This document shows, piece by piece, positions 7,895 through 41,728 of a DNA stretch of 47,209 nt (position 1 is its first letter; every line of letters starts with the position of its first letter). A model generated the notes under the pieces. The model ran no database searches and was not told where the DNA came from. It saw nothing but the letters and a program-made list of their open reading frames with translations. The position numbers and the translations under genes are program-made. Origin of the DNA: Candidatus Omnitrophota bacterium (GTDB lineage Bacteria; Omnitrophota; Gorgyraeia; Gygaellales; Profunditerraquicolaceae); the NCBI GenBank assembly GCA_022013085.1, contig JAKLQX010000002.1, positions 1-47,209 of the forward strand, in the 5' to 3' direction.

Positions 7895-7909
7895 TAGATT
7901 GTAAAACAT

Positions 7910-7956
7910 GGGGACGGTTCTATTTAATTAAATAGAACCGTCCCCTTTATTTTTTT
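7910..7956. terminator. bidirectional intrinsic terminator between convergent genes
   Basis: Perfect 36-nt palindrome GGGGACGGTTCTATTTAA|TTAAATAGAACCGTCCCC (7910-7945) followed by TTTATTTTTTT on the plus strand. The minus strand has the weaker tail ATGTTTTAC. Confidence 0.8.
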
Positions 7957-8799: not shown

Positions 8800-9678
8800 T
8801 TAAGCTTCTACCTTAAGATTATACTTCTTTATGTTATTATCTGCAATCTCCTGTACCTTTTTAATCTCTTCAGGATTATTAAGCAGATGTTTAAATCTAC
8901 CCTGGCTCTTTAAATATTCCTCTACTGGCTTAGGAACAATCTGTTTACGGTTAGCTAAAACACCGAATTCATACTCAAATAAAGGATAAAGCCCGGTCTC
9001 CACTGCTAATTTTGCTACCGGTAACATCTGATTAGTCTCATGTCTCCAGCCTAATGGACAAGGAACATGTATTTGGATATATTTAGGGCCTTTAATAGAA
9101 ATGGCTTTTTTTACTTTGCGCTGTAAATCCTGCGGGAAACCCGCTGAAGCTGTAGCAACATAAGGAATGCCATGTGCTAGACAAATCTCCGGCATGGGTT
9201 TTTTAGGACAGATATTTCCTGAAGAGTTCACCCCCAGAGGGCTAGTAGTAGTATTCGTATCAAATGGAGTAAGCCCGCTTCTCTGCACTCCGGTATTCAT
9301 ATAAGCTTCGTTATCATAGCAAACATACAAAATATCATGGCCTCGCTCAAGCATACCGCTCAAAGCTTGTAAGCCAATATCAGCAGTTGAGCCATCTCCG
9401 CCTTGAGCAATAACATTAGTTACATCTTTTTTACCTAAATATATAAGTGCTGCTTCAATGCCTGATGCCACCGCAGCAGAATTCTCAAATAAAGAGTGAA
9501 TCCAGGGCACTCCCCAGGCAGTTTCAGGATATTTTGTAGAAAAAACCTCCAAACAACCAGTATTATTAGCAATAATAGTATTTGCCCCGGCTGCCTCAAT
9601 AACTAAACGCGCAGCAATGGCTTGTCCGCATCCGGCACATGCTGTATGTCCAGATTTAAATAAAGGGCTATTCTCCAT
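8800..9678 (-). CDS. porB: 2-oxoacid (pyruvate/2-ketoisovalerate):ferredoxin oxidoreductase, beta (TPP-binding) subunit
   Basis: GHTACAGCGQ near the N-terminus, the TPP motif GGDGSTADIG...YDNEAYMNTG, and operon context. Confidence 0.9.
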   Translation of the reverse strand: MENSPLFKSGHTACAGCGQAIAARLVIEAAGANTIIANNTGCLEVFSTKYPETAWGVPWIHSLFENSAAVASGIEAALIYLGKKDVTNVIAQGGDGSTADIGLQALSGMLERGHDILYVCYDNEAYMNTGVQRSGLTPFDTNTTTSPLGVNSSGNICPKKPMPEICLAHGIPYVATASAGFPQDLQRKVKKAISIKGPKYIQIHVPCPLGWRHETNQMLPVAKLAVETGLYPLFEYEFGVLANRKQIVPKPVEEYLKSQGRFKHLLNNPEEIKKVQEIADNNIKKYNLKVEA

Positions 9679-10855
9679 ATTCTTCCTTAAGCAATTCCGG
9701 TTTTAAATCCACAAAATCTGAGTTGACTTCTTTAGCACCCAATCTTCTAAATACTTCATGAATAGTTTCTAATGTGATATCTCTTCCGCCTAAACCACCA
9801 ACAAAACTACTGATTATCTTTGGCCCTTTTTTCTTGCCAAAAAACGCTGCTTTCATCTCAACAGCAACCGGGGCATAGGCACCTAAAGAAACTGCCTTAT
9901 CTAAAACTGCTACCTTGGTAACATCTTTTAAAGCTTCATAAACCCGAGCATAGGGAAATGGCCGATAAGTGATAATGCGTAAGAGCCCAACTTTTTTGCC
10001 TTTTGCGCGCTGCTCATCAATTACTTCCTTAATCGTCCCACAAACTGAACCCATAGCTACAATTACCTTTTCAGCGTCTTTAACTTGATACTCTTCAACC
10101 AGCAAATCTTTATAATCTCGGCCGAAAACTGACAAAAACTCCTTACTTATCTCAGATAAGTAAACCAATGATTCTTTCATGGTTTCCTGGATGGCAAAAC
10201 GCGTCTCCATATAATAGTCTGGATCAGCTAAAAGCCCCATGGAAATCGGTTCATTAGTATCTAATTTATATAAAGCCTGATAACTAGGCAAAAATTTATT
10301 TACTTTATCCTGCTCTGGGATATCCACTGTTTCCATGCCGTGAGTCAAAATAAACCCATCCATACAAACCATTACCGGCAACATCACCCGTTTGTCTTCA
10401 GCTAAACGGTAAGCGACAAGATGAAAATCTGCTGCCTCTTGGTTATCTTCGGCATAAATCTGAAACCATCCTGAATCACGCAATGATATAGAATCCTGCT
10501 GATCATTCCAAATATTTATCGGAGCACTTATTGCGCGATTTGCGCAAGTCATTACAACCGGTAGGCGCATTCCAGCAATATTAAAAACTACTTCCTGCAT
10601 ATAAAACAAACCTTGTGAGCTAGTCGCAGTATAAACGCGTACCCCGGTTGCCGATGCGCCCAAAACTACCGAAGCAGCTGAGTGTTCGCTTTCTACATTG
10701 ACAAATTGCGAAGTTAATTCGCCATTTGCCACCATCTGCGCCAGGCCTTCAACAATATGCGTCTGAGGTGTTATAGGATAGGCAGAGATCACTCCTGGTT
10801 TACAGGATTTGATTATTTCTGCTACCGCGCGTGATCCCTCTAGGAATTCCTTCAC
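9668..10855 (-). CDS. porA: 2-oxoacid:ferredoxin oxidoreductase, alpha subunit
   Basis: 395 aa with the AYPITPQT motif. The start is a GTG at 10855-10853 that lies partly inside the repeat arm. Confidence 0.9.
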   Translation of the reverse strand: MKEFLEGSRAVAEIIKSCKPGVISAYPITPQTHIVEGLAQMVANGELTSQFVNVESEHSAASVVLGASATGVRVYTATSSQGLFYMQEVVFNIAGMRLPVVMTCANRAISAPINIWNDQQDSISLRDSGWFQIYAEDNQEAADFHLVAYRLAEDKRVMLPVMVCMDGFILTHGMETVDIPEQDKVNKFLPSYQALYKLDTNEPISMGLLADPDYYMETRFAIQETMKESLVYLSEISKEFLSVFGRDYKDLLVEEYQVKDAEKVIVAMGSVCGTIKEVIDEQRAKGKKVGLLRIITYRPFPYARVYEALKDVTKVAVLDKAVSLGAYAPVAVEMKAAFFGKKKGPKIISSFVGGLGGRDITLETIHEVFRRLGAKEVNSDFVDLKPELLKEEYGE

Positions 10856-10928
10856 CCCGCACCTTCTTCCTTATTTAATTTATCAAACCGTATAGCCTTA
10901 ATAGTTGAATATTTAGAAGGTGCGGGGT
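10854..10928 (-). repeat. palindromic-ended intergenic cassette, copy A (porD|porA junction)
   Basis: Perfect 14-bp inverted arms ACCCCGCACCTTCT (10854-10867) and AGAAGGTGCGGGGT (10915-10928) around a 47-nt AT-rich core. The arms are identical in copy C, and one arm is identical in copy B. Confidence 0.9.
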
Positions 10929-11201
10929 TCATTTATCCTCACCTTTAGATTCTTCAGGCACCATCGCAATATCTTTTTTAGGGCAGATATCCGCGCATAC
11001 CCCGCAACCTTTACAAAAATTATAATCCGCCCAAAAAGCATTCTTTTCTTTGCCATGTACACAGCCTTCCGGACAAATCATCAAACACATCCTGCAGGCA
11101 ATGCAATCTTTATGCAGATAATGCGGACGATACTGCACTCTCCAGCTACCAGTCTTATCCCCTTTACTCTTTGATGGTTTTACAGTTAGCGGACCAAACA
11201 T
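10929..11201 (-). CDS. porD: 2-oxoacid:ferredoxin oxidoreductase, delta (2x[4Fe-4S]) subunit
   Basis: CIACRMCLMICP and CKGCGVCADICP motifs; 90 aa. Confidence 0.9.
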   Translation of the reverse strand: MFGPLTVKPSKSKGDKTGSWRVQYRPHYLHKDCIACRMCLMICPEGCVHGKEKNAFWADYNFCKGCGVCADICPKKDIAMVPEESKGEDK

Positions 11202-33776: not shown

Positions 33777-34517
33777 TTAGTTAGGTAAATATTTTTTTGC
33801 CGCGTTTAAATACTTATAATCCCCAATATCAAACCAAGTACCATTAAAAACATATCCATAGACATCTGTTCTTGTTTTTAACCAAGCAATATAACCACCC
33901 GTAGCATCGGTTTGCTTTTTTTTATCTTGTAAATACTCCTCGATCAAACTTAAGAAATTTTTGGGCATATAGTATAAACACATAGCCACGAGGTTAGATT
34001 GCGGGTACTTAGGTTTTTCAATAAAGCTCACAACTTTTTTCTGACTATTTAATTTAGCTACCCCATAACGACTAGCGTCTTTTTTGTACTTTAATTTGTA
34101 TAAACCTACAGTAGCTTGCGAAATATTTTTCTTAGAAAAAGCTAAAAATTCGCTTAAAGAGCCACTAAACAAATTATCCCCACCAATTATTAAAAGATCC
34201 TCTTTAACCCTTTGTTTCTTTATAGCAAAATTTATATCGCCTATAGCGCCTAATCTATCTTGATTGTTTCTAGTTAAATCATCTATTATGGTAATCTTCT
34301 TGGGCGATTTAATTGATTTTTTCCACAAACGGAAAAACTTGATAAATTTGCTATTAGTAATAAGATAAATCTCATCAATAACGGAAACCCTATCTAATTT
34401 ATCAATTATATAATCTACAATCGGCCTACCCTTAACTTCAAGCAAGGGTTTTGGATATTCCTTGGTTAGTGGATAAAGCCGAGTAGCATAACCGGCAGCT
34501 AAAATCAGCGCCTTCAC
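33777..34517 (-). CDS. sugar-1-phosphate nucleotidylyltransferase family protein
   Basis: MKALILAAGYATRLYPLT is the NTP_transferase signature. The GTG start (34517-34515) lies partly inside the repeat arm. Confidence 0.7.
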   Translation of the reverse strand: MKALILAAGYATRLYPLTKEYPKPLLEVKGRPIVDYIIDKLDRVSVIDEIYLITNSKFIKFFRLWKKSIKSPKKITIIDDLTRNNQDRLGAIGDINFAIKKQRVKEDLLIIGGDNLFSGSLSEFLAFSKKNISQATVGLYKLKYKKDASRYGVAKLNSQKKVVSFIEKPKYPQSNLVAMCLYYMPKNFLSLIEEYLQDKKKQTDATGGYIAWLKTRTDVYGYVFNGTWFDIGDYKYLNAAKKYLPN

Positions 34518-34666
34518 CCCGCACCTTCTTTCTTAATTAATTTATCCAGCACTTTCTTATTATTCATTTGTTTAAACCGTAAGTTTTTAATGCTTGAATC
34601 CTTAGAAAGTGCTGGATTTATCAAACCGCATTACTTCAATAGTTAAATATTTAGGAAACTCAGGGT
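34516..34666 (-). repeat. palindromic-ended intergenic cassette, copy B (ptsI|nucleotidyltransferase), with one decayed arm and a nested insertion
   Basis: The arm at 34516-34529 is identical to those of copies A and C. The distal arm at 34653-34666 (AGGAAACTCAGGGT) is degenerate. Once 34546-34615 is removed, the core aligns with copy A. Confidence 0.85.
34546..34615. mobile_element. nested 70-bp MITE-like sibling element with 12-bp terminal inverted repeats and an ATTTAT(C) flanking direct repeat
   Basis: CCAGCACTTTCT...AGAAAGTGCTGG, flanked by ATTTAT at 34540-34545 and 34616-34621. Copy A shows the uninterrupted site TTAATTTATCAAACCG. Confidence 0.55.
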
Positions 34667-34671
34667 TCATT

Positions 34672-37920: not shown

Positions 37921-37987
37921 AATTACCTGTTTAAAAAAATAAAGGGGACGGTTCCTTTTTCTATCAGGTCAGGAGACGGAAAAACAG
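37921..37987 (-). terminator. intrinsic terminator downstream of ptsN
   Basis: The minus strand reads GGGGACGGTTC-(32 nt)-GAACCGTCCCC followed by TTTATTTTTTT. The stem and tail are identical to the module at 7910-7956. Confidence 0.8.
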
Positions 37988-38005
37988 AACCGTCCCCTAG
38001 ATTCT

Positions 38006-38476
38006 TTAAATCTTTTTTTCGTCTTCCTGCGTAATGATTTTGGTTACAGATTTTTCGTCGATACAGGCACGTAAGGTATCGCGAAAATACTTATCTTTTA
38101 AAAGACGCGATATTCTGGCTAAAGCCTTAAGGTGTGGGCCAGCGGAATCCTGCGGAGCCACAAGTAGAAAAAAGATATAAGCCAACTCTCCATCCAAAGA
38201 ATCAAAATCTACGCCTTTCTTTGAAAGACCAAAAGCAGCAACTAACTTATTCACACAGTCGCATTTTGCATGCGGGATGGCTATGCCTTGGCCAATTGCA
38301 GTCGAACCTAAAGCCTCTCTAGACATAAGGGCATCAATGAGTTTATTGCGGTTGCGTTTCTCAACATCTCCAGCTTCAATTAAAAGATCCACCATCTCTT
38401 TAAGCACATCTTCCTTCCTAGTGGATTTTATATCAGTAATAATAGCCTTCTTAGAAAGAAAATCCATTATCTGCAT
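38006..38476 (-). CDS. ptsN: PTS IIA(Ntr)-type regulatory protein
   Basis: 156 aa; GQGIAIPHAK is the active-site His motif of EIIA(Fru/Ntr). Confidence 0.8.
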   Translation of the reverse strand: MQIMDFLSKKAIITDIKSTRKEDVLKEMVDLLIEAGDVEKRNRNKLIDALMSREALGSTAIGQGIAIPHAKCDCVNKLVAAFGLSKKGVDFDSLDGELAYIFFLLVAPQDSAGPHLKALARISRLLKDKYFRDTLRACIDEKSVTKIITQEDEKKI

Positions 38477-38615: not shown

Positions 38616-38689
<74 letters not shown>

Positions 38690-38716
38690 GTTTTTTATTC
38701 TTTTCACCCTAAGAAC

Positions 38717-38801
38717 TGGTGGGCGGAAGAGGATTTGAACCTCCAAGGGTTGCCCCAATAGCTCCTAAGGCTATCGTGTCTGCCAATTTCACCATCCGCC
38801 C
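38717..38801 (-). tRNA. tRNA-Leu(UAG), type II, with encoded CCA
   Basis: Acceptor GGGCGGA/TCCGCCC, a 3-bp D stem, anticodon arm ATAGC-CTTAGGA-GCTAT, a 13-nt variable arm, T arm GGAGG-TTCAAAT-CCTCT, then ACCA. Confidence 0.9.
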
Positions 38802-38836
38802 AGAAAAGGGCCACTGCTTGATTCTTACTGAATTTA

Positions 38837-38909
38837 TGAGCCTCCCGCGACTCGAACGCGGCACAACCACATTAAAAGTGTGGTGCTCTACCGGATGAGC
38901 TAGAGGCCC
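38837..38909 (-). tRNA. tRNA-Lys(UUU)
   Basis: GGGCCTC-TA-GCTC-ATCCGGTA-GAGC-A-CCACA-CTTTTAA-TGTGG-TTGTG-CCGCG-TTCGAGT-CGCGG-GAGGCTC-A; 73 nt. Confidence 0.95.
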
Positions 38910-40217: not shown

Positions 40218-40742
40218 TTATTCGCCGATCTTGTAGCGGATAAACCTGCGGATAACAATCTTTTCGCCGATTTTTGCTACAATACTACCTAAATAATCCT
40301 TAATAGTTATACTCGGGTCTTTAAGAAAAGCTTGCTCAAATAAACAATTATTTTTGTAATACTCTTCATCGCTTTTATCATGTTGCAAAAGCTCCGCCGG
40401 AACATCTTCTTTTTGGATATAAACCGGGCTGGTTGCGGCAATTTGCATTGCTAAATCTTTGGTAAACCTGGCGAAATCTTCGTTCTTCGCTACAAAATCA
40501 GACTCACAGTTTGTTTCCAGTAAAACCCCGATCTTGTTGCCATGATGGATATAAGCATCAACGCGGCCTTCTTTTGCACTGCGGCCCTGTTTCTTAGCAG
40601 CAATCTCTAAACCCTGTTTACGCAATAATATCACTGCTTGTTTGATATCTCCTTTAGCCTCTTCCAAAGCCTTTTTACAATGCGCAATACTAGAGCAAGT
40701 AATATCTCTTAATTCTTTAATCGCATTCACTGAACTCTTCAC
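40218..40742 (-). CDS. tsf: elongation factor Ts (short form, 174 aa)
   Basis: VNAIKELRDIT...CKKALEEAKGDIKQAV is the UBA-like N-terminus. It lies in rpsB-tsf-pyrH-frr order. The GTG start (40742-40740) lies partly in the repeat arm. Confidence 0.85.
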   Translation of the reverse strand: MKSSVNAIKELRDITCSSIAHCKKALEEAKGDIKQAVILLRKQGLEIAAKKQGRSAKEGRVDAYIHHGNKIGVLLETNCESDFVAKNEDFARFTKDLAMQIAATSPVYIQKEDVPAELLQHDKSDEEYYKNNCLFEQAFLKDPSITIKDYLGSIVAKIGEKIVIRRFIRYKIGE

Positions 40743-40835
40743 CCCGCACCTTCTTTCTTATCTAATATTATTTTATATTTATCATCCCTTAAACCTTCAG
40801 CATGTTAAACAACGAATATTTAGAAGGTGCGGGGT
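40741..40835 (-). repeat. palindromic-ended intergenic cassette, copy C (rpsB|tsf junction)
   Basis: The arms at 40741-40754 and 40822-40835 are identical to copy A. The 67-nt AT-rich core shares its ends with copy A (CTTAT..., ...GAATATTT). Confidence 0.9.
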
Positions 40836-41728
40836 TACCCTTTCTTTCTCAATTTCGGCTTTATCTCACCGGCTGACTTTAGGCGAGCTTTCTTGGCTGC
40901 TTTTGCTTCTTCAGTAAGCGGCTGGCTATCCTCAACAATCTCTTCAATCTCTTTAATCTTGATTTCTTCTTCCGGGAGAACTTCTAAAATAATATCCTGC
41001 TTTGTTTCTTCTACCTTAACCCCTTCCTGAGAAAGATAAGACAAAAATTTCTTCCTTCCTTCAATAATTGTATCCGCGATAATTGCAGCTACTGTTCGGA
41101 TGGACTTCGTAGCATCATCATTACCAGGTATAGGGTAATCTATTAAATCAGGATTAGAATTAGTATCAATCAAACCAATTATAGGAATTCCCAGCCTGCG
41201 CGCTTCTTTCACAGCAGTTTCTTCTTTCTTCGTATCGACAATAAAAGCTGCTTTAGGCATACGTTCCATAGACACAATACCTGAAAAGTTTTTATTCAAC
41301 TTGGCTAACTCTTTTTCCAGGCGCGCTACTTCTTTTTTGGTCAACTTTTCAAATATTCCATCAATACGCATCTTCTCAATCTCTTTTAAACGATTAATAC
41401 TTTTCTTAATCGTAGTAAAATTGGTAAGCATACCACCTGGCCAACGGTCAGTAACATAGTACATGCCGCTTCTTATGGCCTCCTGCTTAATCACATCCTG
41501 AGCCTGTTTTTTGGTACCAACAAAAAGGACAAATTCGCCTTTTGAGGTTATATCCATTAAGAAATCACGAGCAGCATTAACGCACTCCTCAGTCTTCTCC
41601 AGGTCAATAATGTAAATACCGCTTCTTGAACCAAAAATAAATTTCTTCATCTTAGGATTCCAGCGTTTAGTCTGGTGCCCAAAATGTACACCTGCTTCTA
41701 ACAACTGTTTAATTAATTCTGATGGCAC
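40835..41728 (-). CDS. rpsB: 30S ribosomal protein S2 with an acidic/Lys-rich C-terminal extension
   Basis: [19 protein letters not shown] is the S2 signature. GTG start; 297 aa. Confidence 0.95.

What the first reader, a model, noticed from the sequence alone, without database searches (positions are those of the whole stretch)
10851..10931. TGAA direct repeats around the cassettes restore abutting stop/start junctions: a transposition footprint with ATG-to-GTG start conversion
Seen: if the arms are taken as 13 bp (CCCCGCACCTTCT), copy A is bracketed on the minus strand by TGAA (10931-10928) and TGAA (10854-10851). Copy B is bracketed by TGAA at 34669-34666 and 34516-34513. Copy C has TGAA at the gene-proximal side (40741-40738) and GTAA at the distal side, a 1-nt difference. 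Removing the cassette plus one TGAA gives, for A, GAT AAA TGA AGG AAT TC. This is the porD stop overlapping ATG AAG GAA TTC, which is exactly the porA N-terminus MKEF in a classic ATGA overlap. For B the result is AAA TAG A ATG AAG GCG CTG (ptsI stop, then MKAL). For C it is AAA GGG TGA AGA GTT, with GTG overlapping TGA. Inference: these are insertions with a 4-bp target-site duplication at TGAA within stop/start junctions. The upstream TGAA copy keeps or creates the stop region. The element's terminal G plus the downstream TGAA copy rebuilds a GTG-AAG start. This explains why three unrelated genes share GTG-AAG.
Basis: inference. Interest (0 to 1): 0.75.

Follow-up and report, generated by a model that had tools for sequence, protein, structure and literature searches.

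The report
Start-codon-inserting hairpin mobile element
The three "cassettes" are copies of a small mobile hairpin element, found across many Omnitrophota genomes, that inserts into a gene's start codon, duplicates four bases (usually TGAA), and brings its own ribosome-binding site and a final G so the gene restarts from GTG.

Summary
In the window, 13-nt inverted arms (CCCCGCACCTTCT / AGAAGGTGCGGGG) bracket three inserts directly upstream of porA, an NTP-transferase gene and tsf. Contigs from near-identical strains hold the empty sites. The porD|porA empty site reads GAGGATAAATGAAGGAATTC, exactly as predicted: an ATGA overlap with an ATG start. One strain also lacks the hairpin nested inside copy B.

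A scan of 185,579 species genomes found about 100 perfect-arm copies in about 38 assemblies, nearly all Omnitrophota. Flanks are TGAA/TGAA in 69 copies, and the rare variants covary (TGAG/TGAG, TGGA/TGGA). In 81 of 97 copies a long ORF starts at the arm's last G plus TG.

Two findings are new. The right arm is a Shine-Dalgarno-like sequence that the left arm sequesters. In 34 of 76 copies an ORF runs from the old ATG to a TGA overlapping the new GTG, which suggests a translational relay.

No transposase was found. The closest known analogue is the mycobacterial MIRU. I class this as a new variant of a known kind.

The parts
10928..10932 (-). Copy A: the old start codon ATG (10932-10930) plus the left copy of the duplicated TGAA (10931-10928). 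The porD stop TGA (10931-10929) overlaps it.
   Evidence: Empty alleles read GATAAATGAAGGAATTC.
10915..10927 (-). Copy A left arm, CCCCGCACCTTCT. It is complementary to the Shine-Dalgarno-like right arm.
   Evidence: The fold gives -36.2 kcal/mol, z = -5.2.
10868..10914 (-). Copy A loop, 47 nt. It has the subterminal pair TATTCA / (T)AAATAAGGA and a weak internal copy of the right arm.
10855..10867 (-). Copy A right arm, AGAAGGTGCGGGG. It contains a Shine-Dalgarno-like AGGTG 4 nt before the start codon, and its last G is the first base of the porA GTG.
   Evidence: (ORF 9668-10855 starts with GTG).
10851..10854 (-). Copy A: the right copy of the duplicated TGAA. It supplies the TG of the new GTG start, and its TGA is the stop of the element-spanning small ORF.
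10852..10932 (-). Copy A relay ORF of 26 codons, [26 protein letters not shown]. It runs from the old ATG to a TGA that overlaps the new GTG by 4 nt.
34513..34669 (-). Copy B as a whole. An older element with a 47-nt loop carries a nested insertion. Its parts are: left TGAA 34669-34666; decayed left arm 34665-34653; intact right arm 34529-34517; right TGAA 34516-34513; GTG of the NTP-transferase gene 34517-34515.
   Evidence: L198 carries the same outer element without the nested one.
34541..34620 (-). The variant element nested inside copy B. Its arms are TCCAGCACTTTCT (34616-34604) and AGAAAGTGCTGGA (34557-34545), flanked by TAAA (34620-34617) and TAAA (34544-34541).
   Evidence: (I2). The empty site in L198 reads GGTTTGATAAATTAATTAAG.
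40738..40837 (-). Copy C. Its parts are: rpsB stop TAA 40837-40835, abutting the left arm 40834-40822; 67-nt loop; right arm 40754-40742; TGAA 40741-40738; tsf GTG 40742-40740. The old ATG and the left TGAA have been deleted.
   Evidence: Empty alleles L190, L195 and L196 read GGGTAATTTTAAAATGAAGAGTTCA.

Best explanation
The three inserts are copies of a non-autonomous, MITE-like mobile element of 73-155 bp with 13-bp terminal inverted repeats. The family is spread through the phylum Omnitrophota.

What is shown:
- The element integrates at (A/G)TGAA, which is the start codon plus the first two bases of codon 2.
- Integration duplicates the 4 bases TGAA.
- The old ATG stays on the left. On the right, the element's terminal G plus the duplicated TG forms a new GTG in the original reading frame.
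- Arm variants that end in A rebuild ATG instead.
- The right arm carries a Shine-Dalgarno-like AGAAGGTG 4 nt before that start codon.
- The left arm is its exact complement, so the transcript can fold into a hairpin of about -35 kcal/mol that buries both the Shine-Dalgarno-like sequence and the start codon.

What is inferred:
- Ribosomes still load at the old Shine-Dalgarno sequence and old ATG.
- They translate a short ORF encoded by the element (MNPAPS...NKKEGAG), which melts the hairpin.
- They terminate at a TGA that overlaps the new GTG (GTGA), and translation is handed on to the gene.
- The insertion is therefore nearly silent for expression and is tolerated at start codons.

The enzyme that moves the element was not found. 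A trans-acting transposase that makes 4-bp staggered cuts is the simplest assumption.
For: Insertion and 4-bp duplication:
- Empty and filled alleles exist in strains that encode the identical PorD, EF-Ts or NTP-transferase protein.
- Empty sites were also found in more distant porA loci, for example L107 with ATGAAAGAATTT.
- L110 is an independent insertion at the same gene, with the host-specific duplication TGAG.

Family-wide flank pattern:
- Of 105 perfect-arm copies, 69 are TGAA/TGAA, 5 TGAG/TGAG and 4 TGGA/TGGA.
- The base before the left 4-mer is A in 76 copies and G in 20.

Position at gene starts:
- In the arm-G+TG frame, 81 of 97 copies open an ORF of at least 100 codons or one that runs off the locus.
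- In each of the two other frames only 2 of 97 do so.

Relay ORF:
- Loop length modulo 3 is distributed 45/17/14 (p = 1e-5).
- 34 of the 45 in-frame copies are open from the old ATG to the overlapping TGA. Shuffled loops give 5-11.
- The other two frames are open in 0 and 2 of 76 copies.

The right arm is kept while the left arm decays:
- This is seen in window copy B and in solo right arms at gene starts in L016, L038, L079 and L091.

Other supporting results:
- The hairpin folds at -36.2, -33.7 and -35.1 kcal/mol, with z between -3.8 and -5.5.
- Mobility continues. There are nested and tandem copies. Loops are more alike within a genome (39-45 of 47 positions) than at the same site across genomes (32-33 of 47).
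- Other arm families have the same architecture and the same target.
Against: - No autonomous copy or transposase with matching ends was found. I searched 1.4 Mb of fetched Omnitrophota DNA, the window's own genes, and the viral contig collection.
- The relay ORF is intact in fewer than half of the copies, and copy C has lost the old ATG altogether. Coupling through a small ORF therefore cannot be obligatory.
- Translation and folding are predictions. No expression data were available.
- The perfect conservation of the arms is partly built into the search pattern.
- Copies sit at start codons far more often than a bare TGAA preference explains. The window has 33 intergenic TGAA sites against about 10 gene starts of the form xTGAA. 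I cannot tell whether this reflects target choice or differential survival.
- The empty alleles could be ancestral sites or precise excisions.
Confidence: 0.8

Rival explanations
1. The element is a single-strand hairpin element of the REP/REPIN-RAYT or IS200/IS605 type. It would insert 3' of a TGAA tetranucleotide with no true duplication, and the right-hand TGAA would be the element's own cleavage motif.
For: - The element is one strong hairpin bracketed by a fixed tetranucleotide.
- Several arm families with different sequences share the same architecture and target. That fits recognition of a structure better than recognition of one inverted-repeat sequence.
- No DDE-type partner was found.
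Against: - Left and right 4-mers covary among copies with identical arms: TGAG/TGAG, TGGA/TGGA, TTAA/TTAA, TAAA/TAAA.
- The 4-mers follow the host's own start sequence, as with ATGAG at porA in L110 and its relatives.
- From recollection, REP elements carry a 5' GTAG and lie outside genes without duplications. IS200/IS605 ends are two different subterminal hairpins rather than terminal inverted repeats.
Confidence: 0.1
2. The hairpin is mainly a host cis-regulatory RNA, such as a translational switch, thermosensor or processing site, in which an anti-Shine-Dalgarno arm masks the ribosome-binding site. Under this view mobility is incidental or ancient.
For: - The arms are identical in about 38 species while the loops diverge.
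- 55 of 97 loops contain a degenerate internal copy of the right arm (at least 9 of 13 positions, against about 4% of shuffled loops). This copy could pair with the left arm as an alternative and free the Shine-Dalgarno-like sequence.
- The same genes (porA, NTP-transferase, an rpmJ-like gene) carry the element in several species.
Against: - Presence and absence vary between strains at all the window sites.
- The genes involved are unrelated in function.
- The duplicated flanks mark insertion events.
- Left arms decay freely once inserted (copy B, L101, L102).
- No Rfam family matches.
- Later co-option for regulation is not excluded.
Confidence: 0.07
3. The hairpin is removed from the mRNA by cleavage at the base of the stem followed by ligation, like a bulge-helix-bulge intron. 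That would restore AUGAAG at the RNA level.
For: - Removing the element plus one TGAA from the transcript would recreate the original start.
- The same 13-nt arms directly bracket tRNA genes in three Patescibacteria MAGs, which looks like a processing stem.
Against: - Nothing in the data requires splicing.
- Several features argue that the unspliced RNA is what gets translated: the start codon is rebuilt (G or A plus TG), the right arm carries a Shine-Dalgarno-like sequence, the through-reading ORF is kept in frame, and solo right arms survive at gene starts.
- Copy C lacks the left TGAA and the old ATG, so splicing there could not restore a start.
Confidence: 0.02

Closest known systems
Mycobacterial interspersed repetitive units (MIRUs; Supply et al. 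1997, as summarised in PMC12548453 and PMC3184786)
   Same: - Both are short repeats of 40-100 bp found inside operons.
- Both are described as inserting at start codons.
- Both have tetranucleotide direct repeats on each side, and empty and filled sites in relatives.
- Both contain an internal ORF whose end overlaps the downstream start with -4 nt spacing. This is interpreted as making the insertion nearly neutral for expression.
   Different: - The phylum is different, and no sequence relationship was tested.
- MIRUs are mainly known as tandem direct repeats with only imperfect inverted repeats.
- The element here is a single strong hairpin with perfect 13-bp terminal inverted repeats.
- One of its arms is a Shine-Dalgarno-like sequence masked by the other arm.
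- Its last base rebuilds the start codon, usually turning ATG into GTG.
Bacterial MITEs such as Correia, Nezha, RUP and MITEAba12 (review PMC3184786)
   Same: All share terminal inverted repeats, a target-site duplication, a small size with no transposase gene, many copies, RNA-level stem-loops, and empty and filled sites in relatives.
   Different: - From the review and from recollection, known MITEs mostly lie in intergenic DNA and have TA or AT-rich targets.
- I found no description of a MITE that lands on the start codon in one orientation in about 90% of copies, or one that carries an outward-facing ribosome-binding site and start-codon base.
- No parent insertion sequence is known here.
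Neisseria REP2 and Borrelia IR repeats (PMC3184786)
   Same: [quoted passage not shown]
   Different: According to the review, those repeats have no terminal inverted repeats and also carry a promoter. No duplication of the host start codon is described for them.
Translationally coupled gene pairs with a masked downstream ribosome-binding site (RNA-unfolding and reinitiation models; PMC12548453)
   Same: - Both have a 4-nt stop/start overlap (GTGA or ATGA).
- In both, inhibitory structure covers the downstream ribosome-binding site and would be opened by the upstream ribosome.
   Different: Here the upstream partner is a short ORF brought in by a mobile element, not a gene.

Membership tests
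MITE (miniature inverted-repeat transposable element) | Terminal inverted repeats | tested here: met
   The arms are perfect over 13 bp, CCCCGCACCTTCT / AGAAGGTGCGGGG.
MITE (miniature inverted-repeat transposable element) | A target-site duplication of host sequence, shown by empty versus filled sites | tested here: met
   - The duplication is 4 bp.
- Empty alleles were found for copy A, copy C and the element nested in B.
- L110 has the host-specific duplication TGAG.
- Flank 4-mers covary across the family.
MITE (miniature inverted-repeat transposable element) | Small size, no transposase gene, many copies | tested here: met
   - Elements are 73-155 bp.
- The only ORF is a peptide of about 26-44 codons with a variable middle.
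- At least 13 loci in one MAG (JAPLLV01) and about 100 in all have perfect arms.
MITE (miniature inverted-repeat transposable element) | An autonomous insertion sequence with the same ends in the same genomes | tested here: inconclusive
   None was found in the window, in about 1.4 Mb of fetched loci, or in the viral contigs. Whole genomes could not be searched.
MIRU | Insertion at start codons, with an internal ORF coupled to the downstream gene at -4 nt and tetranucleotide direct repeats | tested here: met
   The MIRU properties are taken from PMC12548453 and PMC3184786.
MIRU | Sequence homology to mycobacterial MIRU consensus units, and occurrence in Mycobacterium | not tested
   No MIRU sequence was at hand. 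The hosts here are Omnitrophota, so the resemblance is one of function, not of family membership.
REP/REPIN-RAYT or IS200/IS605-derived hairpin elements | No target-site duplication; a conserved tetranucleotide that belongs to the element or target on one side only | tested here: not met
   Both flanks covary and are host sequence.
REP/REPIN-RAYT or IS200/IS605-derived hairpin elements | An associated Y1 (HUH) transposase gene flanked by the repeats | not testable with these tools
   This needs whole-genome searches of the host MAGs.
Any Rfam RNA family | A score at or above the family's gathering threshold | tested here: not met
   Only three tRNAs in the window reach threshold. Across the element there are only hairpin-like microRNA hits at noise level, with E of at least 0.9.

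The most novel reading that the evidence does not exclude
The element, together with its sister arm families, could be a phylum-wide class of mobile DNA whose machinery actively selects translation start sites. On this reading the bias toward start codons is not explained by a bare TGAA preference alone. The element would also carry a portable "start-site repair kit": a Shine-Dalgarno-like sequence, a start-codon base, and a relay ORF.

A related possibility is that the 13-nt stem is recognised by a conserved nucleic-acid-binding factor that also acts on the identical stems flanking tRNA genes in Patescibacteria. That would give the copies a shared regulatory or processing role.
Probability: 0.2. 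Interest if true: 0.8.

Novelty: new variant of a known kind. Interest (0 to 1): 0.66.

Why it matters
- **A way for mobile DNA to occupy a start codon.** The start codon is one of the most sensitive positions in a gene. The element appears to replace what it disrupts: ribosome-binding site, start codon and reading-frame hand-over.
- **Annotation.** It explains recurrent GTG-AAG starts and odd "intergenic" hairpins in Omnitrophota MAGs. It also explains why short-read assemblies break there. Gene callers should expect these features.
- **Strain markers.** Presence or absence of the insert differs between strains, which gives markers for uncultured populations.
- **A natural test case.** Matched filled and empty alleles allow a direct test of the RNA-unfolding and reinitiation models of translational coupling.
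- **An open enzymology question.** The mobilising enzyme and the basis of the start-site preference are unknown. Both are tractable targets.

Tried and rejected
- **Rfam.** Neither the gathering-threshold search nor the permissive search found a family for the element.
- **A conserved protein-coding reading.** Only the arm-encoded ends of the peptide (MNPAPS...EGAG) are constant and the middle is free. The open frame looks selected, not the peptide itself.
- **Autonomous element.** I looked for unpaired arms and for arm pairs 0.3-4 kb apart. I also looked for repeated segments of at least 300 bp between loci and ran Pfam on the ten least operon-like window ORFs. I then scanned the viral contigs. 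None of these found anything.
- **L189.** Its odd continuation looked like a possible longer element. It is a junction into another repeat family (GGGGACGGTTCT), most likely a chimeric short contig.
- **Resemblance to the IS5 end.** I recalled the IS5 end as GGAAGGTGCG... The shared motif points outward here and inward in IS5, so I did not pursue it. This rests on memory and was not tested.
- **piggyBac/IS1380-type ends.** I recalled these as CC(C)... termini with a 4-bp TTAA-like duplication. I keep this only as a lead for the transposase search. It was not tested.
It is also contradicted by the syntenic relative L079, which has a 36-nt spacer.
- **A 6-bp duplication (ATAAAT) for the nested element** is equally compatible with the sequence. 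I prefer 4 bp (TAAA) with 13-nt T...A arms, by analogy with the rest of the family.
- **Literature.** Six searches found no description of these elements in Omnitrophota.
Full report
**1. The observation**

- Five arms occur in the window against 0.65 expected by chance.
- Copy A lies between porD and porA and is flanked by TGAA on both sides.
- Copy B lies between ptsI and an NTP-transferase gene and has TGAA on both sides. Its left arm is decayed (7 of 13 positions match) and a second hairpin sits inside it.
- Copy C lies between rpsB and tsf. It has TGAA on the right only, and the rpsB stop TAA abuts the left arm.
- In all three the downstream ORF starts with the last G of the right arm plus TG.
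- Each insert folds into a strong hairpin as RNA: -36.2, -33.7 and -35.1 kcal/mol, with z between -3.8 and -5.5.
- No Rfam family matches.

**2. Empty sites**

Looking up contigs that encode exactly the same PorD, EF-Ts and NTP-transferase proteins gave both filled and empty alleles from independent assemblies.

| Site | Empty allele | Filled allele |
|---|---|---|
| porD\|porA (copy A) | L181, L182 (GCA_030655815.1), L184, L186 and L187 read GAGGATAAATGAAGGAATTCCTAGAGGG | The window, L183, L185 and L188 carry the element and a second TGAA |
| rpsB\|tsf (copy C) | L190, L195 and L196 read AAAGGGTAATTTTAAAATGAAGAGTTCAGTG | The window and L191-L194 read GGGTAA[element]TGAAGAGTTCAGTG |
| Nested element in copy B | L198 has the outer element only (GGTTTGATAAATTAATTAAG) | The window and L197 carry the nested hairpin |

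- *Copy C.* The element entered at ATGAA and changed ATG to GTG. Twelve bases (TTTTAAAATGAA) were also lost on the left.
- *Nested element.* It has arms TCCAGCACTTTCT / AGAAAGTGCTGGA and is flanked by TAAA on both sides. It is a separate and recent insertion.
- *Outer element of B.* No empty allele was found. The same junction is also filled in the relatives L025 and L079.

**3. The family**

One scan of 185,579 species-representative genomes for both arms 45-75 nt apart returned 99 loci. They came from about 38 assemblies, nearly all labelled Omnitrophota.

- *Flanks.* Among 105 perfect-arm copies the flank pairs are TGAA/TGAA in 69, TGAG/TGAG in 5, TGGA/TGGA in 4, TTAA/TTAA in 1 and TCAA/TCAA in 1. 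The base before the left 4-mer is A in 76 and G in 20. The rare 4-mers covary between the two sides (Fisher p = 1e-6 and 4e-5).
- *porA relatives.* Among 80 porA loci fetched from metagenomes, most have no element and start directly with ATGAA, ATGAG or GTGAA. L110 is an independent insertion flanked by ATGAG...TGAG in a lineage whose relatives start with ATGAG. L101 and L102 hold decayed copies. The duplicated 4-mer is therefore host sequence.
- *Position.* In 81 of 97 copies the frame that starts at the arm's G plus TG opens an ORF of at least 100 codons or one that runs off the locus. Only 2 of 97 do so in each control frame.
- *Comparison with a bare TGAA preference.* The window has 33 intergenic TGAA sites against about 10 gene starts of the form xTGAA. 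The near-exclusive location at start codons needs either extra target specificity or strong differential survival. I cannot say which.

**4. Anatomy beyond the arms**

- *Inverted repeat.* It continues after a small bubble (TATTCA / TGAATA).
- *Right arm.* It contains AGGTG 4 nt before the start codon, which by standard knowledge of bacterial initiation is a well-placed Shine-Dalgarno sequence. The left arm is its complement.
- *Through-reading ORF.* Loop lengths are biased to one residue class modulo 3 (45/17/14, p = 1e-5). In 34 of those 45 copies an ORF runs unbroken from the old ATG to a TGA that overlaps the new GTG. Shuffled loops give 5-11. The other two frames are open in 0 and 2 of 76 copies. 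Nine different loop lengths keep this frame, so the frame looks selected, while the middle of the peptide is not conserved.
- *Stops near the right arm.* The conserved TGAATAAGAA before the right arm supplies stops in the other two frames, close to the start.
- *Asymmetric decay.* Where copies decay, the left arm goes and the right arm stays. This is seen in window copy B and in solo right arms at gene starts in L016, L038, L079 and L091.
- *Internal arm copy.* 55 of 97 loops hold a degenerate copy of the right arm, against about 4% of shuffled loops. Its role is unclear.

**5. Mechanism**

Shown:
- The element is a discrete insertion with a 4-bp duplication at the start codon.
- The start codon is rebuilt as GTG, or as ATG in arm variants that end in A.
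- The element has been active recently. Alleles differ between strains. Nested and tandem copies exist. Loops are more alike within a genome (39-45 of 47 positions) than at the same site across genomes (32-33 of 47).

Inferred:
- Ribosomes that start at the old ATG unwind the hairpin and terminate at GTGA.
- Translation then restarts at the GTG. This combines the RNA-unfolding and reinitiation routes described for coupled genes (PMC12548453).
- In copy A this forms a two-step relay: porD stop/ATG overlap, then the small ORF, then the GTGA overlap into porA.
- In copy C, the ribosome terminating on rpsB would itself reach the left arm.

The mobilising enzyme is unknown. No autonomous copy was found.

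**6. Comparison with known elements**

- The element meets the structural definition of a MITE, except that no parent insertion sequence is known.
- In function the closest match is the mycobacterial MIRU. MIRUs are described as inserting at start codons with tetranucleotide direct repeats and an internal ORF coupled at -4 nt.
- This family differs in four ways: its phylum, its perfect hairpin arms, the masked Shine-Dalgarno-like arm, and the start-codon base supplied by the element.
- REP/RAYT-type and IS200/IS605-type elements are excluded as families by the true duplication.
- I found no paper describing these elements.

**7. Verdict**

It is of moderate to high interest because of three things: the start-site specificity, the built-in translational relay, and clean natural allele pairs for testing.

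Noticed in passing
L017 6-106, L036 1013-1112, L042 3906-4006: In three Patescibacteria MAGs the identical 13-nt arms directly bracket tRNA genes (Ala-TGC, Thr-GGT, Arg-TCT). They extend the acceptor stem, and there is no matching 4-bp flank repeat. This is far too specific to be chance. Its relation to the Omnitrophota element is unexplained.
   Followed up: partly
L020, L021, L031, L041, L043, L064, L077 (arms (T/C)CCCGTTAGA...TCTAACGGG(A/G)); L011 3707-3790 (arms CCCAGCCCCTCC/GGAGGGGCTGGG): Other hairpin families with different arms have the same architecture and target. Their flanks are ATGAG/TGAG, ATGAA/TGAA or TAAA/TAAA. Arms that end in A rebuild an ATG start.
   Followed up: partly
window 7903-7952 and 37931-38010; also L010, L015, L016, L091, L092, L120: This is a second repeated palindrome family, GGGGACGGTTCT / AGAACCGTCCCC, found at gene ends. 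It looks like a terminator and recurs in related genomes.
   Followed up: no
loops of 55 of 97 family copies; for example L070, L063, L045: A degenerate internal copy of the right arm (AGAAGGYRYGGGG) lies about 23 nt after the left arm and about 20 nt before the true right arm. In the shortest copies TGAA follows it directly. It could be a relic of a tandem right end, or an alternative pairing partner for the left arm.
   Followed up: partly
L079 1500-1545: In a syntenic relative, the rpsB|tsf spacer holds a different perfect palindrome (TCTGCCTGCCGGCAGGCAGA). It is followed by AAGGTGTGAAGTGAAG, with a GTG start for tsf and no full element.
   Followed up: no
L103, L104, L106, L109, L111, L122, L137 (porD|porA junctions): Several relatives that lack the element already start porA with GTG in a GTGA overlap. 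GTG at this gene is therefore not always a footprint of the element.
   Followed up: no
L001, L185, L188 (contig ends); L189 520-587: Short-read assemblies of the same strain break at or just inside the element's left arm. One contig continues from the loop into an unrelated repeat, which is probably a chimeric join.
   Followed up: yes
L044 1468-1568; L034 3564-3635: A Phycisphaerae-labelled contig holds a nested copy flanked by TCAA/TCAA. An Omnitrophica WOR_2 contig holds a copy flanked by GTTGAC/GTTGAC. These suggest other target sequences or other duplication lengths in outlying lineages.
   Followed up: no
window 38616-38909: A cluster of three tRNA genes lies on the minus strand.
   Followed up: no
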